Assembly (NCBI RefSeq): GCF_004010195.1
Contig: NC_057718.1
Location: 46,196,600 to 46,260,599, forward strand
DNA length: 64,000 nucleotides
Reading direction: 5' to 3'
Source of the DNA: Chiloscyllium plagiosum
Taxonomy: Eukaryota
In this document: positions 21,203 to 58,903 of the stretch, piece by piece
Numbering within the stretch: the stretch's first letter is position 1
Layout: every line of letters begins with the position of its first letter
Position numbers and translations under genes: made by a program
Notes under the pieces: generated by a model
Database searches by the model: none
Told to the model about the DNA's origin: nothing
The model's input: only the letters and a program-made list of their open reading frames with translations

Positions 21203-21406
21203 AGGAGAAAGTGAGGACTGCAGATGCTGGGGATCAGAGCTTAAAAATGGGTTGCTGAAAAAGTACAGCAGGTCAGGCAGCATCAAAGGAGAAGGAGAAT
21301 CGACGTTTCGGGCATCCTGAAGAAGGGCTTATGCCTGAAATGTCGATTCTCCTTTTCCTTTGATGCTGCCTGACCTGCTGCGTTTTTCCAGCAACACATT
21401 GTTAAG
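21203..21406. mobile_element. Penelope pseudo-LTR inverted (hairpin) mini-insertion with 14-bp TSD and hammerhead motif
   Basis: Arms about 21239-21315 and 21331-21407 are reverse complements. TSD cacatgtaatgttt at 21189-21202 and 21407-21420. Core CTGAAGA-A-GGGC-ttat-GCCT-GAAA-tgtc. Confidence 0.88.
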
Positions 21407-21631
21407 CACATGTAATGTTTGCCAGGGTTCAAACTGATCATTTGCCGGAGACTGGACAGTGTCAAAATTTGATTGCGCAGCTTCTCGGTAAGGAAACAGT
21501 ATAAAGAAAGCTTGCTTAAAGCGAGTTAGCAACCACAGGAAGTAGGTCATCTGATTGATGACTGAGACTTTAGGGTACAACAGGCTGATCACCTCTTCTG
21601 GTCAGCTTGGACAAATCCACGTAGGCAGGTA

Positions 21632-35510: not shown

Positions 35511-36543
35511 TAGATCAGAAATTGGTGAGCTGAAAGAAGACAGAGGATGGTGGTTGATGGGAAATGTTCATCATGGAGCTCAGTTACCCGTGGTGTGCCG
35601 CAAGGATCTGTTTTGGGGCCGCTGCTGTTTGTCATTTTTATAAATGGTCTGGAGGTGGATGTAGAAGGATGGGTTAGTAAATTTGCAAATGACACAAAGG
35701 TAGGCAGAGTTGTGAATAGTGCTGAAGGATGTTGTGGGTTACAGAGGGACATAGATAAGATGCAGAGCTGGGCTAAGAAGTGGCATTTGGAGTTTAATGC
35801 AGAAAAGTGTGAGGTAGTTCATTTCGGAAGAAGTAGCAGGAAAGCAGAGTATTGGGCTAATGGTAAAATTCTTGGCAGTGTAGATGAACAGAGAGATCTC
35901 AGTGTCAAGATGCATAAATCCCTGAAAGTTGCCACCCAGGTTGATAGTGTTGTTAAGAAGGCTTTGGTGTGTTGGCATTTATTGGTAGAGGGATTGAGTT
36001 TTGGAGCCACGAGGTCATGCTTCAGCTGTACTGGTAAGGCCATACCTCGAGTACTGTGTGCAGTTCTGGTCCCGCATTGTAAGAAGGATGTGAAAGCTTT
36101 GGAAAGGGTTCAGAGGAGATTTACTAGGATGTATGGAACGAAGATCTTATGAGGAAAGGCTGAGGGAACTAAGGCTGTTTTTGTTGGAGTGAAGAAGGTT
36201 GAGAGGTGACTTACTTGAGATGTATAAGATAATCAGAGGGTGGACAGGGAGAGCCTTTTTCCTCGTATGGTAAAGGCTAACACGAGGCGACATAGCTTTA
36301 GATTGAGGGGTGATAGATATCAGGGGTAGTTTCTTTACTCAGAGAGTAGTAGGGGTGTGGAACGGCCTGCCTGTAACACGCAGTAGACACTCAGACGTTA
36401 AGGGCATTTAAATGGGCATTGGACATACATATGGGTAATATGGAAAGATGTAGGTTAGATGGGCATCAGATTAATTTCGCAGGTCAGTGCAACATCGAGG
36501 GCCAAAGGGCCTGTGCCCTGCTGTAACATTCTATGTTCTATGT
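35511..36543 (+). mobile_element. 5'-truncated CR1 LINE inserted in the Gypsy integrase tail
   Basis: ORF 35547-36152 ([46 protein letters not shown]); (ttctatg)n tail. Confidence 0.93.
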
Positions 36544-38409
36544 ATCACCTAGCAGAACTTTGTAAGTAACGGGACCTGGCCTTGCATCTACCTCGCCTCG
36601 TACCCATACAGGGCCATTTCCATGGTTCCAGCATCAAACTTCATCCCCTGAGTTCAATTACCTCTCTGACTGAGAAGTGCATTTGCATTCTTGCTGCTGT
36701 TTCACCCTCCCCCATGTCTGGGAATATCAAGTTTAACCTGATGCAGAGTCTTCTTCCCATCAACAACTTTGCTGGAGCTATCCCTGTTTGCATGTTGGGT
36801 GGTCCTATACTCAAACAGAAACCAGGACTGTTTGTTACCAATTGACACTGTAGGCTGTTTCTTTAAACCTGCCTTCAACACTTGGATTGCCCTTTCCACT
36901 AGACTATTTGATGATGAATGGTATAGAGCTGTCCTTATGTGCCGAATGCCATTTGACATTAGGGAATATTCAAAATCCCTGCTGGTAAATGACATCCCAT
37001 TGTCTGTGAACAATACTTCCAGGGGCCTGTGTATCGCAAATAATCATCTCTGAGTTTGCTGAACAAATGTTTAGTATGTCCAACTACTCTGAAAGGGTGC
37101 CCATAATGACCAGGAGCATTGGGCCCATGAAAGGACTGGCACAGTCAACATGCAACTGAGTCCAGAGTTCTCCCGGCCATTTGCATGAATATGGAGGTGC
37201 TGACGATGGCAATTTTTGTCCTTTTTGGCATCTGGGCACTGCCCGCCAATGCAGCAATGTCAGCATCCAACTCCAGCCACCAGACATAGCTTCTTGCTAG
37301 CATCTTCATTTTGGAAACCCCTGGATGACACTGGTGGAGCTCAGCCAGTATCTGGTGGCAGCCTTTACTCAGGACAGTCCCCCTTCCTCCCCACAGTAAT
37401 ATGTCGTCCTCTACAGTTATCTGGTCCCACCAGATCCAGAAAAGTTTCAATCCAGATTGAGATGGCCCAGCTATTTTAGTTTCACTAGAACAAGATCTTT
37501 TCGTGTCCACAGCGGATATTGTTTGTGGTGACTGGAAAGGTGTCCAGGAAGTTCAAAACCAAAACAGACTCTTCCAGGCGTAGCACCTCTGGTGGAGTAT
37601 CTGCCAATGGGAGGCAGCGTAAGGCATCCGTATTCACCACTTGGTGTTTAACTTGTAGATTCTGAGAATAAGGGCCCAATGTTGAATTCTACCACCACCT
37701 TGTCTTCCTTCAGTAGCCCTAGCAGGAGTTTGTGATCTGTTACTACAACAAATTTCTGTCCATAAAGGGACTGGGGTAACTTCCTCACACCAAAGATGAC
37801 CACTAAACCTTCCTTCTCTATCTGGGCATCTTTGCATCTGGCATCAGCCAAAGTCCAGGAAGCACACAATTGGATGGTCCTCTCCGTAGCACCACTGGTG
37901 AGCCAACATTACGCCAATACTGTATAGGGAGGCATCACATGTTAACACTGCCTCTCACTTCGGGCCAATAAGATGACTATAGTTGACTATAGTTGCTTTT
38001 TCACTTCCTTCAAGGCTGCTTCTCAGTTTTGCAACCACTCGCAGGGCTGACCCTTTATCAACAGCAGGTGTATAGGTGCCAAGATAGAGGTCGGGTTAGG
38101 TATGAATTTTCCATAATAACTCACTAGCCCAAGGCATGACCCAAGCTCCAGTACAGACGTGGGAAGCGGGGTTCCTTTGATTGCCCTCTCTTCCTCTTCC
38201 AACGGGTGTCAGCTGGTTTTGTCAACTCTGTGGCCCAAGTAGGTCAGTTGAGAGACCTGAAACTCACATTATTCCCTTTCTAAGGCATATGCACGTCTGG
38301 GAGAAACATTTAAGCAGCACTATGTCCAAGTTCTCCAAGTGCTCTTTATTGGTCTTCCCTATTATTAGTACGTCATCTAGGTAAATGGCTATCTGGGGTA
38401 GCTCTTGTA

Positions 38410-38742
38410 CAGGTAAACAATCCCTTATCCGAAATTCCAAAATCTGAAAAGCTCCAAAATCAGAAGTTTTTTTCTCCACAACAAGGTTGTTTGGCTTGCA
38501 AACAGTTAACCCAACTCCACACCCACTCAACCTGCGTCACTCAGATGTGACATGGCGGCATGGCTCAGCACTGGCAGACATCAATTCTGTCTCAGCACTT
38601 GTTATAGTCACATTTGTGTCTGCTGCTTGGAAAGGATTTTTTAATTTCACTATGAAAATGTCATTTATTCCAAAATCTGAAAAATTCCGAAACCCAAAAA
38701 CTAGCTGGCCCCGAGGGTTTTGGATAAAGGATTGTACACCTA
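38410..38742. mobile_element. Tigger-like MITE inserted in Gypsy RT
   Basis: TA|caggtaaacaatcccttatccgaaa ... ttttggataaaggattgtacaccta|TA. Removing it restores RT MGNILQELPQIAIYLDD. Confidence 0.9.
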
Positions 38743-40431
38743 TAGAATGTTCCCCATGGTTAGCTGGACAAAAGTGCAGGCTGGTGATACCTCAAATGGC
38801 AATCTTGTATATTGGTATAAATCCTATGGATATTAATTGTAGTGTACTTCTGTGACTCCTCATCCAGTCACAATTGCAGGTAGTCGTGGCTCATGCCCAG
38901 CTTTGTTAAGGATAGCCACCCCACCATCATTGCGTACAAGTTCTCTATGCGAGGGATTGGGTATTTATCCAGCTGTGAGAAATGGTTTATCATTTGCTTA
39001 AAATCCCCACAAAGGTGAACTGAGCCTCCAGGCTTCACAACCAGTATGACTGGTGCTGCCCATTCTGCAAAGTACACCCTCCTGATTTCCGCCTCTACTT
39101 CTGTTTGCAAGGCAAATGGCACCAGGCAGGCCTTGCTTCCTGATCAACACGTCAAGTGGCTTTGGCCCCTTTGATAGTCCCAAGCCCTTCCTGAAATATT
39201 CCTGGGTATTTCACTAGGACTTCACTGAGGCAGCCATTTTCTTATCGAAAAATGTTTAGCCAATCAAGGTGAATCTTTCTCAATCAATTCTGCCCCAATA
39301 GACTTGGGCCTGAGCCTTTTACTACAATCAGTGGTAACTGCACTAACTGCTTCTCATAGGAGACCGGAACAGAAGTATTACCTTTAATCTGCAACAGTTC
39401 TCCAGTGTATGTTCTCAGTCTGGCTGAGGTCTTCTGCAACTGAAGGGTTGGAGACCCAGTGAATCTTGTTAAAGATGGCTTCTTCAGTCACAGATATAGC
39501 TGCGCTGGAATCAACCTCCATGGGAACTGGATGACCATTTAACCAAAATCAATTCTGGTTTGGATGTCACTAACCAATTTAATTGTTCCAACTCACATAT
39601 AGGGGAACGTTCCAAGGTGTGCATTCTCCTGGGTACCAGCCTAAGACTTTTCTTACTCAAGTCAGACCTTAAAGGATTCCTTTGCTGTCGAGAGCCTACG
39701 TACCGGTAACAATTACAATTGCTTGCTGGCCCAGATCCTGAAAAATATTTTAGCCATTTGGATGAGGCATTGCTTTGTTGTTCTGCTGTGGACTAGGTGA
39801 GGGCCCTCTACTCAGGATGTGCCCTGCATGAGGCTCTGCAATTGCCTACACTCAAGTGGTGTTCTCCAAGATCAGTCAGAGAGGTGAGGGTGTCCATGTT
39901 ATTTGGGATACCCTGTAGCTTCCATGCTCCACTTGCCACCCTTTCTAATGACAACATCACGTGCTGTGCCTGTTTGAAGTCCAGTTGGGCTTCAGTTAGT
40001 AGGCGCTTCTGCATGTTTATGTCATTAATTTCACATACCAAACGGTCTCACAGCATCTCATTCAGGGTTAACCCAAAATCACATGTCTCTGCAAGTCATC
40101 TCAACCTCGTCAAAATCCTGATATGGATTCCCCAGGTTCTTGAACAGCCAAATAAAACTGATAGATTGTGCATTTATTTTTTCAGCAGCATAGAATATGT
40201 CTGCACATATAACTCTGCAAATACAAATTCACCCCATAGACTTATATATGTGTGTACGTGCACAAGAGAGAGAGAGAGTGTGTGAGTGTGTGCATGTGAG
40301 AGAGTGTGTGTTTGCATGGATGAAAACTTGGTAAAGTGTCATGATTTGGAGATGCTGGTGTTGGATTGGGGTGTACAAAGTTAAAAATTACACAACACCA
40401 GGTTATAGTTCAACAGGTTTAATTGGAAGCG

Positions 40432-40466
40432 CACTAGCTTTCGGAGCGTCGCTCCTTCATCAGGTG
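40432..40466 (-). ncRNA. Minimal hammerhead ribozyme motif (Penelope family B), intact core
   Basis: Reverse complement cac-CTGATGA-A-GGAGC-gac-GCTCC-GAAA-GCT-A-gtg: stem I cac/gtg, stem II 5 bp, palindromic stem III AGCT. Confidence 0.75.
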
Positions 40467-40486
40467 ATAGTGAAGTCCTCCACTGT

Positions 40487-40521
40487 CACCTGATGAAGGA
40501 GCGATGCTCTGAAAGCTAGTG
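40487..40521 (+). ncRNA. Minimal hammerhead ribozyme motif (family B), one stem II C>T change
   Basis: cac-CTGATGA-A-GGAGC-gat-GCTCT-GAAA-GCT-A-gtg. Confidence 0.65.
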
Positions 40522-40912
40522 CGCTTCCACTTTAACCTGTTGATAACGTGTGTGTGTGAGTGTAATGGGGTATAAGCCTGTGAGAGGGTGTCAGCATGGA
40601 GGGTGTGAGTGTGGAGGTGTGTGTGCGTGTGCATGAGAGAGAGCATGTATATGAGATAGGGTCTGCGTAAGTATGTGAGTATGTAAGAGTGTGCGTGTGT
40701 GAGAGTGTATAGTGTATTGGAGTCACCTGTAGTGTGACATGAACCCAAACTCCTGATTGAGGCCATCTCCATGAGTACCAAATTTGGCTACCAGCCTCTG
40801 CTTGGCCACTCTGTGTTGTTGCTTATCCCAAAGTCCGCCTTAGATCTTCGGGTGACCATCCTCCAAGGTGGACTTCGAGACAGGCAGCAATGCAGAGTGG
40901 CTGAGCAGAGGC

Positions 40913-40952
40913 AGATTCCTGAAGAAGGGCTTATGCCCGAAACGTCGATTCT
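40913..40952 (+). ncRNA. Minimal hammerhead ribozyme motif (family A), intact core
   Basis: agattc-CTGAAGA-A-GGGC-ttat-GCCC-GAAA-CGTC-gattct: GUC cleavage triplet, palindromic stem III ACGT, stem I with 5 of 6 pairs. Confidence 0.78.
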
Positions 40953-41005
40953 CCTGTTCCCTGGATGCTGCCTGACCTGCTGCGCTTTTCCAGCAACACA
41001 TTTTC
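40913..41005 (+). mobile_element. Penelope family A pLTR mini-insertion with 9-bp TSD
   Basis: TSD agcagaggc at 40904-40912 and 41006-41014. Same family as 21203-21406 and 58805-58903. Confidence 0.88.
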
Positions 41006-41713
41006 AGCAGAGGCTGATAGCCAAGTTTGGTATCCATGGGGATGGCCTCAACTGGGACCTTGGGTTCATGTCACACTACAGGTGACCCCAATATAGTCTC
41101 ATACACACACACTCTTACATACCCACACACGCACCAGATCCTGTCTCATACACACACTGTCTCTCATTCACACCTACGCACGTACCCTCTCACAGGCTTA
41201 TACTCCATCAACCTAGACACACTTTACCAAGTATGCACACATGCAAACACACACTCTCATGCACTCTGTCTCTCTCTCATGCACACACACAACATATATG
41301 TCTATGGGGTGAATTTGTATTTGCAGAATTATATTTGCAGATACATTCTATTTTGCTCAAAAGAAAATGCACAATCTTCAGGCAGTCAATGCAGGCAGTT
41401 TATCCATGTACTATTTTGTAAATTCCACTTTGGAAATAGAAGCAGTCTGACTTAAGATTGGGATACAGACAGACTCTTTAATGCATTGTCCGAGCTGAGA
41501 TGTCACCTTTTGTTATAAAACCTTACATTATCGCGAGAAGGTGCTTAAAAGAAGTTCTGGGGTTTATATATTAATGAACTGAAACCTGCAGCCCATTCTA
41601 AAAGATGAAAGACTTAACAGCAATTTAGGTTTGTTCAATATATCATTTCAGTTGCATGACACCGTAATCTTTTGCGATTAAATTCTGTGTCTTGTGATCT
41701 TATATTCCACAAC

Positions 41714-41748
41714 CACCTGATGAAGGAGCAGTGCTCCGAAAGCTAGTG
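41714..41748 (+). ncRNA. Minimal hammerhead ribozyme motif (family B), intact core, in terminal pLTR
   Basis: cac-CTGATGA-A-GGAGC-agt-GCTCC-GAAA-GCT-A-gtg. Confidence 0.75.
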
Positions 41749-41839
41749 CTTCCAAATAAACCTGTTGGACTATATCCTGGTGTTGTGTGATTTTTAACTT
41801 TGTCCGCCCCAGTCCAACAACAGCACTTCCACAATGTAT

Positions 41840-42364
41840 ATTTCTTTTTTCTTATAAACCGCTACACTACCGTCAAACACCAGAAGTGCTTATGTTTGCC
41901 CAGCGCCCATGTTGTATGCGTGTAGGTGTAGGACACAGTGAAAAAGACGAGTGCAGAAAAAGTTATTCGTATTCCATCACCAGGAAGAAAAACCACCTGA
42001 GTGGCCAGTGACAAGCACTGCCATTCTCAACAGAGGCCATTGCTTAAGTGATCGAAAAATGAAGGAGAAGGGGTAGGTATAAATTAAAATAGAGTTGGAG
42101 GGGGAAATAGAACACTCCACATCCTGTGGTGCCCACCTCTCCCTGAAACCTCTCGCATATTGCTAGACACCACATATCCCTTCTCCATCGATACCTTGGC
42201 CCAAACATAATCCCCTGGTTATAATTTTTTTTCTTTTTTTCTTTCTTTTAGTGAAAAACAATAAGTGTGTAAAGTGTAAATTTTTATTCATTTTCCACCA
42301 CCAGGAAGAAAGAAAACACCCGAGTGGCTAGTGACAAGCAAGGCCCTTCACATCAAAAGGCAAT
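41840..42364 (-). mobile_element. Tx1/L1-clade LINE 3' ends (two tandem pieces, second truncated by the gap)
   Basis: Minus strand about 42080-42215 reads DYVWAKVSMEKGYVVSSN../FRERWAPQDVECSISPSNSILI. The 3' UTR motif caccaggaagaaa..gagtggc(c/t)agtgacaagca occurs twice. Confidence 0.7.
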
Positions 42365-42864
42365 NNNNNNNNNNNNNNNNNNNNNNNNNNNNNNNNNNNN
42401 NNNNNNNNNNNNNNNNNNNNNNNNNNNNNNNNNNNNNNNNNNNNNNNNNNNNNNNNNNNNNNNNNNNNNNNNNNNNNNNNNNNNNNNNNNNNNNNNNNNN
42501 NNNNNNNNNNNNNNNNNNNNNNNNNNNNNNNNNNNNNNNNNNNNNNNNNNNNNNNNNNNNNNNNNNNNNNNNNNNNNNNNNNNNNNNNNNNNNNNNNNNN
42601 NNNNNNNNNNNNNNNNNNNNNNNNNNNNNNNNNNNNNNNNNNNNNNNNNNNNNNNNNNNNNNNNNNNNNNNNNNNNNNNNNNNNNNNNNNNNNNNNNNNN
42701 NNNNNNNNNNNNNNNNNNNNNNNNNNNNNNNNNNNNNNNNNNNNNNNNNNNNNNNNNNNNNNNNNNNNNNNNNNNNNNNNNNNNNNNNNNNNNNNNNNNN
42801 NNNNNNNNNNNNNNNNNNNNNNNNNNNNNNNNNNNNNNNNNNNNNNNNNNNNNNNNNNNNNNNN
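42365..42864. other. Assembly gap (500 N)
   Basis: Run of n; the round size suggests a placeholder. Confidence 1.
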
Positions 42865-58804: not shown

Positions 58805-58903
58805 CACAGTCGAGAGTGTGTTGCTGGGAAAGCAAGGCAGGTCAGGCAGCATCTGAGGAGCAAGAGAACCAACGTTTCGGGCAAAAGCCCTTCAGCAGGA
58901 ATC
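58805..58903 (-). mobile_element. Penelope family A pLTR fragment with mutated hammerhead core
   Basis: Reverse complement gattc-CTGCTGA-A-GGGC-tttt-GCCC-GAAA-CGTT-ggttc...gatgctgcctgacctg. Confidence 0.8.

What the first reader, a model, noticed from the sequence alone, without database searches (positions are those of the whole stretch)
40328..40548. Fold-back mini-element with two head-to-head hammerhead ribozymes, one per strand
Seen: arms about 40411-40472 and 40481-40543 are reverse complements around an 8-nt loop. Each arm holds cac-CTGATGA-A-stemII-GAAA-GCTA-gtg; the minus copy is intact and the plus copy has one stem II C>T change. Known: Penelope pLTRs carry minimal hammerheads with a palindromic stem III that are thought to cleave as dimers. 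Inference: transcription from either direction yields one ribozyme plus its antisense. On both strands the antisense arm is made first, so the long hairpin should compete with the ribozyme fold, possibly acting as a self-silencing or dsRNA-producing switch.
Basis: partly seen in the sequence, partly recalled or inferred. Interest (0 to 1): 0.7.

Follow-up and report, generated by a model that had tools for sequence, protein, structure and literature searches.

The report
Head-to-head Penelope stub in shark DNA
This 200-base mirror-image insert is one of more than 1,200 similar stubs of a Penelope-like jumping gene in a shark-like genome; its two ribozyme motifs are predicted to be locked in the hairpin, and it was likely made when the element copied only the first 95-130 letters of its RNA onto both cut DNA strands.

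Summary
The hairpin and both minimal hammerhead (HHR) motifs are real. It is not a one-off, and nothing supports a switch. It is the known inverted-pLTR-plus-tail insertion of Penelope-like elements (PLEs), here between 12-bp target duplications (10/12 match). The genome holds 35,432 exact HHR 16-mers and 1,221 close head-to-head pairs. Of 50 pairs, 38 join one tailed and one tail-less arm, none two of a kind; 40 have a target duplication; 43 junctions are distinct, so each likely forms anew. The ribozyme fold costs 57-66 kcal/mol against the hairpin. Family-level clues to mechanism: 56 of 101 copies end within -15..+9 of the HHR core; an untemplated G precedes position -8, likely a copied cap; family RNA is polyadenylated at +57/+60, upstream of both arm ends. 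This copy is old and lacks the -8/G end. No read spanned its junction. Opposite-strand HHR pairs are in print (PMC4209133). The scan found this class before, many times, on other DNA.

The parts
40328..40339 (.). Left target-site duplication (12 bp)
   Evidence: Matches 40540-40551 at 10 of 12. An uninterrupted host copy (L185) carries this 12-mer once, followed by the focal right flank.
40340..40475 (-). Long arm: pLTR end with HHR, poly(A) signal and tail
   Evidence: Aligns to a natural family copy to +122; 86.5% to the third copy at 41708-41831.
40340..40378 (-). PLE 'tail' (about 38 nt), on this arm only
   Evidence: +85..+122 of the family arm; present on one arm only in 38 of 50 sister loci.
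40403..40423 (-). ATTAAA hexamer (40423-40418) and family poly(A) sites (40406, 40403)
   Evidence: Poly(T) loose ends in 142 and 131 reads of run X17, family-level, not from this locus; 342 and 414 reads on L037.
40432..40466 (-). Minimal type I hammerhead motif, intact
   Evidence: Sequence; motif scan.
40473..40480 (.). Head-to-head junction (hairpin loop)
   Evidence: Fold; exact once in the genome, 9 more within 2 mismatches.
40476..40539 (+). Short arm without tail; ends near +50, shorter than the usual +85; poly(A) hexamer decayed
40487..40521 (+). Minimal type I hammerhead motif, G10.1-C11.1 changed to G-U (40510)
40540..40551 (.). Right target-site duplication
40158..40844 (-). Host: older 5'-truncated copy of a related PLE (ORF end plus CA-rich 3' UTR), split by the insert
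   Evidence: About 80% to 41006-41381 in pieces on both sides of the insert. 40726-40839 encodes the ORF's last 38 aa, with 150 scored genomic matches.
40845..41831 (+). Neighbouring 5'-truncated PLE copy: ORF end, 3' UTR, pLTR with a third HHR (41714-41748) and tail; interrupted at about 40913-41005 by a second HHR family (CTGAAGA core)

Best explanation
This is a TSD-flanked, head-to-head pair of short pLTR ends of an endonuclease-positive Penelope-like retrotransposon, likely written in one insertion event by two reverse-transcription starts, one on each nicked DNA strand, and its ribozyme motifs are predicted to be inert passengers. Shown: layout, copy numbers, one tailed plus one tail-less arm, about 12-bp TSDs, variable junctions, a pile-up of 5' ends at the HHR's front edge, an extra G at -9, and family poly(A) sites at +57/+60. 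Inferred: the RNA starts, capped, about 8 nt before the HHR core. The element protein nicks both strands about 12 bp apart. One strand primes at the +85 site and the other at the +122 site, the equivalents of the two internal start sites of Anolis Poseidon. Both cDNAs run off the RNA 5' end and are joined by microhomology or end joining. Because poly(A) cleavage lies upstream of both start sites, a normally processed mRNA would offer start sites only in its 5' pLTR, so stubs would be the default product and long copies would need read-through RNA.
For: Recurrence: 1,221 close pairs among 35,432 HHR 16-mers. Arms: 38 of 50 long+short, 0 long+long, 0 short+short, 12 with one mid or truncated arm; TSD in 40 of 50 (mode 12 bp) against 8 of 195 shuffled flank pairs. 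In 101 copies picked by the 3' motif only, 46 of 48 with an adjacent inverted partner are long+short; 5' ends fall 56 in -15..+9, 2 in -40..-16 and 22 beyond -150. Base at -9 (templated C) among 100 listed non-C copies: G68, A9, T23; controls at -10 G18, A20 and at -7 G31, A30 (hand tallies; Fisher p 5e-6 and 1e-6); background G 22%, A 28%. Of 32 G copies fetched, 30 are truncated exactly there; 2 of 50 pairs show the G end on both arms. Solo copies with TSDs end at either site (L271, L281 short; L276 long). Parent: a 470-aa RT-containing frame ending like the window's ORF end, with shark homologues and GIY-YIG-bearing turtle homologues. PMC11167929: two internal RT start sites bound the tail, both strands are cut and extended, a dimer is predicted, and HHR mutants still insert.
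Against: The focal copy itself does not show the -8/G end: its arms reach about -9 to -12 and -13 to -16, and its short arm stops near +50. The related subfamily picked often reaches -12 to -25. In many G cases the partner arm could also template the G. No RNA 5' end was seen (3'-type library). No full-length copy was found to show the ORF following the tail: 75 distinct tail ends shared no continuation except one duplicated contig pair. Arms often share private variants yet disagree in spacing in 9 of 38, so one versus two RNA templates is unresolved. All counted loci come from contig C1 and needed exact motifs.
Confidence: 0.7

Rival explanations
1. Same PLE by-product, but the second arm comes from self-priming fold-back of one cDNA or an antisense template, and the short end is cut by the endonuclease.
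For: Proposed in PMC3846280; PMC8557442 ascribes the tail to endonuclease resolution. Arms share private variants and are more alike within than between loci (median 95.9% vs 91.7%). Many junctions are near-palindromic.
Against: Tail-less solo copies with TSDs exist. Two loci carry the G-capped-like end on both arms, one with a 2-nt spacer. Arms disagree in spacing in 9 of 38. Both tail ends are RT start sites in vitro (PMC11167929).
Confidence: 0.15
2. A functional hairpin: a self-silencing switch or a source of dsRNA or siRNA that restrains the family.
For: Very stable hairpin. RNA reads that switch strand at the HHR's front edge exist for sister loci, for example 17 reads with 16 starts.
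Against: No read over this junction and only 2 of 727 reads at least 99% alike (about 2% of one run). Arms have drifted 9%. Loop and arm lengths are not conserved. Forcing the HHR fold costs 57-66 kcal/mol. It lies in a nest of dead elements.
Confidence: 0.07
3. A non-autonomous palindromic mini-element (MITE- or retrozyme-like) that is copied as a unit.
For: High copy number, TSDs and regular length; a few junctions recur (4, 3, 2 and 2 times of 50); 9 near matches to the focal junction.
Against: 43 of 50 junctions are distinct; spacers run continuously from 2 nt to over 1 kb. The ends are unequal, unlike TIRs. Retrozymes are direct tandems (10.64898/2026.07.22.740005).
Confidence: 0.05
4. 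Assembly artefact or later inverted duplication.
For: Hairpins can be mis-assembled; no contig of the laid DNA runs spans the locus.
Against: Arms differ by 9%, end at fixed unequal points and are flanked by TSDs at 40 of 50 loci.
Confidence: 0.03

Closest known systems
EN+ PLE insertions with inverted pLTR, one-sided tail and TSD (Adineta Pen2a, PMC3846280; general scheme PMC8557442; D. virilis Penelope, PMC2377424)
   Same: Head-to-head inverted pLTR, 30-40-bp tail on one end, TSD around the whole unit.
   Different: No ORF inside; about 200 bp; very high copy number; 5' ends pile up at the HHR's front edge.
Minimal HHRs of metazoan PLEs (PMC4209133)
   Same: Same core, extra base before stem II, palindromic 15.2-16.2, short stem I; that paper already notes dual motifs on opposite strands 100-700 bp apart in Schistosoma.
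   Different: Spacing is only about 25 nt, so the motifs form one hairpin; stem II is 5 bp.
Poseidon of Anolis carolinensis, PAc (PMC11167929)
   Same: HHR shortly upstream of two fixed 3' ends that bound a tail; uncleaved HHR retained in inserts.
   Different: In PAc the ORF starts inside the HHR; here that frame stops within the HHR and the ORF start was not found. Clade not tested.
Non-LTR retrozymes (10.64898/2026.07.22.740005)
   Same: Short non-coding HHR repeats related to pLTRs.
   Different: Retrozymes are direct tandems able to form dimeric HHRs; this is inverted, so it has no same-strand partner.
L1 twin priming (PMC11702581, passages)
   Same: Both DNA ends prime RT, the TSD is kept, and the junction shows microhomology.
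   Different: L1 arms copy adjacent, non-overlapping RNA parts; here both arms copy the same 5' stretch from two fixed sites.

Membership tests
EN+ Penelope-like element insertion | Parent ORF with RT and C-terminal GIY-YIG endonuclease | tested here: met
   L239 470-aa frame: RVT_1 E 9.5e-6, below the curated cut-off; homologue P0001 passes RVT_1; homologue P0032 (42% identical) passes RVT_1 and GIY-YIG. GIY-YIG did not score on L239 itself. ORF end, UTR and HHR are linked in window 40845-41831 and L240, L250, L251.
EN+ Penelope-like element insertion | Adjacent inverted 5'-truncated copy | tested here: met
   48 of 101 copies have a partner within 60 nt.
EN+ Penelope-like element insertion | 30-40-bp tail on one end only | tested here: met
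   Focal left arm only; 38 of 50 sister loci.
EN+ Penelope-like element insertion | Target-site duplication around the unit | tested here: met
   10 of 12 at the focal locus, which the script's stricter rule missed; 40 of 50 sister loci against 8 of 195 control.
EN+ Penelope-like element insertion | pLTR repeated upstream of a full-length ORF | tested here: inconclusive
   No full-length copy found.
Poseidon, Neptune or Nematis clade | RT phylogeny and linker Zn-finger | not tested
   No named reference set in hand; a Cys cluster precedes the endonuclease region in L239.
Minimal type I hammerhead | Core, extra base before stem II, G10.1-C11.1 pair, palindromic 15.2-16.2 | tested here: met
   Minus copy meets all; plus copy has G-U at 10.1-11.1 (definition).
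Minimal type I hammerhead | Self-cleavage (as dimer or protein-assisted) | not testable with these tools
   Predicted blocked in the hairpin; many family reads cross the cut site uncleaved, but short cleaved products would be lost.
Non-LTR retrozyme | Two or more HHR units in direct tandem | tested here: not met
   Inverted pair.
MITE | Equal terminal inverted repeats and a fixed interior | tested here: not met
   Unequal ends and variable centre.

The most novel reading that the evidence does not exclude
The shark PLE pLTR is ordered: capped start (-8), hammerhead, poly(A) site (+57/+60), then two RT start sites (+85, +122). A processed mRNA carries start sites only at its 5' end, so an asymmetric RNP primes one site from each nick and writes a head-to-head stub by default, while full-length transposition needs read-through tandem RNA. 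This would explain in one model the inverted pLTR, the one-sided tail and the need for tandem copies, with thousands of genomic junctions as its record.
Probability: 0.45. Interest if true: 0.55.

Novelty: new member of a known kind. Interest (0 to 1): 0.3.

Why it matters
The locus itself is ordinary debris. The class matters modestly: how PLEs make inverted ends and tails is still open (self-priming in PMC3846280, endonuclease resolution in PMC8557442, two RT starts in PMC11167929). The strict tailed/tail-less pairing, the extra G and the poly(A) site give precise predictions for an existing in vitro system. Over a thousand near-perfect hairpins could also be an incidental dsRNA source in shark cells.

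Tried and rejected
Rfam scan: no hammerhead family hit; miRNA hits are generic hairpins below cut-off. An 850-aa 'open frame' on C28 was a run of N. No full-length element among 15 further candidates, and no shared sequence after the tail. Spliced-exon origin of the extra G rejected: upstream letters differ between copies and the genome has no AG there. A subfamily with G at -9 rejected: only 2 of 32 G copies extend upstream. Internal oligo-dT priming unlikely: no A-run at the poly(A) sites. Run search listed no RNA holder (not evidence). X18 laid 0 reads; DNA contigs X11 and X12 do not span the locus. Paper searches found no account of the 5' pile-up, extra G or poly(A) site in PLEs; the library lacks most subscription papers and no supplements were opened. 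That RT copies a cap as an extra G is recalled knowledge; two searches gave no passage for it. Our-findings look-ups by sequence and by place returned nothing.

Full report
Observation. Arms 40410-40475 and 40478-40543 are 91% complementary over 66 nt and fold into one hairpin with an 8-nt loop. Each arm has a minimal type I hammerhead motif; the minus copy is intact and the plus copy has C>T at 40510. Rfam has no matching hammerhead model at E<=5. Positions below are counted from the first C of the HHR core.

Local anatomy. The left arm continues to 40340 and includes a tail of about 38 nt that the right arm lacks. The insert lies between 40328-40339 and 40540-40551, which match at 10 of 12. 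An uninterrupted host copy shows that 12-mer once, followed by the focal right flank, so these are an aged TSD. The host is an older minus-strand copy of a related element. Next to it a plus-strand copy runs from the ORF end through a CA-rich UTR to a third HHR and tail. The wider region is decayed LTR-retrotransposon and LINE sequence (my reading of the translations).

Parent. The ORF end has 13,503 first-look candidates, 150 scored. One copy keeps a 470-aa frame with a weak RVT_1 match. Its best homologues are shark proteins, and a turtle homologue has RVT_1 plus GIY-YIG. No full-length copy was found.

Recurrence. The genome has 13,395 exact matches to a 35-letter HHR pattern and 35,432 to its first 16 letters. 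There are 1,221 head-to-head pairs with a gap of at most 30 nt. I fetched all 50 listed pairs, all on C1. Of these, 38 pair an arm ending near +122 with one ending near +85; none pairs two of a kind; 12 have one mid-length or truncated arm. TSDs (mode 12 bp) were found in 40 of 50, against 8 of 195 shuffled flank pairs. 43 of 50 junctions are distinct, and the focal junction is exact only here. Longer inverted pairs, spaced 200 nt to over 1 kb, also occur. The mini is thus the short end of a range of insertion products, not a unit with a fixed centre.

5' ends. In 101 copies chosen only by a 3' motif (first 7 Mb of C1), 56 end within -15..+9, 2 within -40..-16 and 22 extend beyond -150; the commonest ends are -8 (9) and -2 (8). 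Where the base at -9 is not the templated C, it is G in 68, A in 9 and T in 23 of the 100 listed (3,971 in all). Controls at -10 give G18, A20 and at -7 G31, A30 (hand tallies; p about 1e-6 to 5e-6). I fetched 40 of the listed G or A copies: 30 of 32 G copies stop exactly there; some have a G that neither TSD nor partner explains (L281, L283), while in many the partner could template it. I read this as a copied cap and a start site at -8. That reading rests on recalled knowledge and no RNA 5' end was seen. The focal copy is an exception: its arms reach slightly further upstream.

RNA. In one single-cell poly(A) run (X17, about 2% read; its organism's DNA contigs match two flank pieces exactly), family reads carry poly(A) at +57 and +60, after an ATTAAA hexamer. 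Many reads cross the HHR cut site uncleaved. Reads that switch strand at the HHR's front edge show that some sister hairpins are likely transcribed, though library chimeras are not excluded. Nothing points to this locus: 2 of 727 reads are at least 99% alike and none joins the two arms.

Ribozyme. Forcing stems I and II costs 66 (plus) and 57 (minus) kcal/mol in the whole element, but only 2-5 in the sense arm alone. Opposite-strand motifs cannot dimerise within one transcript. Single minimal HHRs were inactive in vitro (PMC4209133), and the Anolis HHR needed protein and was dispensable for insertion (PMC11167929). A lock is predicted, not a switch.

Mechanism. Most likely two nicks about 12 bp apart each prime RT, one at +85 and one at +122; both run off the capped 5' end and are joined (0.7 for the whole account; higher for 'PLE by-product' alone). 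Since poly(A) cleavage precedes both start sites, processed mRNA would supply them only at its 5' end. Against this: no full-length copy to confirm the order, and mixed evidence on one or two templates (shared private variants; spacing differs in 9 of 38). Self-priming is the main rival.

What is known. Inverted pLTR, one-sided tail and TSD: PMC3846280 (passages), PMC8557442 (passages), PMC2377424 (passages). Opposite-strand HHR pairs: PMC4209133 (parts 1-2 of 4). Two RT start sites: PMC11167929 (parts 1-2 of 4). Retrozymes: 10.64898/2026.07.22.740005 (part 1 of 5 and passages). L1 twin priming: PMC11702581 (passages). Six searches found no account of the 5' pile-up, extra G or poly(A) site. 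The scan's notes list 260 findings with these words in at least 24 genomes, several with the dual-priming and capped-RNA reading. I had recorded the insertion by-product and capped-start reading before seeing them; they are not independent support.

Verdict. Real; a new member of a known kind; interest 0.3. The switch idea is unsupported. The value lies in the class as a record of how PLEs insert.

Noticed in passing
window 40158-41831: The host copy (minus) and its neighbour (plus) are themselves head to head, meeting near 40845 in the ORF end: perhaps an older, larger inverted insertion with arms about 80% alike; the minus arm lacks its pLTR.
   Followed up: partly
window 40913-41005, 21244-21408, 58817-58903: A second abundant HHR family (CTGAAGA core, 4-bp stem II); the copy near 21315 is itself an inverted pair, and such pairs recur in fetched loci (L033, L041, L055).
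   Followed up: no
L010:1474-1837: Three arms in a row (two head-to-head junctions and one tail-to-tail join), a compound insertion.
   Followed up: no
L009:2558-2726; L043: Very short inverted pairs joined downstream of the HHR core, and repeated nested units.
   Followed up: no
L037:1472-1475 (run X17): The family pLTR gives a well-used poly(A) site; with tens of thousands of copies it may end many host transcripts.
   Followed up: partly
window 35529-39800: Decayed LINE RT fragment (35529-36152, plus) and a decayed LTR-retrotransposon pol region (about 36570-39150, minus), read from translations only.
   Followed up: no
window 38423-38486 and 38667-38692: A small imperfect hairpin and a 26-nt direct repeat inserted in the LTR-retrotransposon remains.
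   Followed up: no
window 41963-42362: Direct repeat with about 322-nt spacing, cut by an assembly gap at 42365.
   Followed up: no
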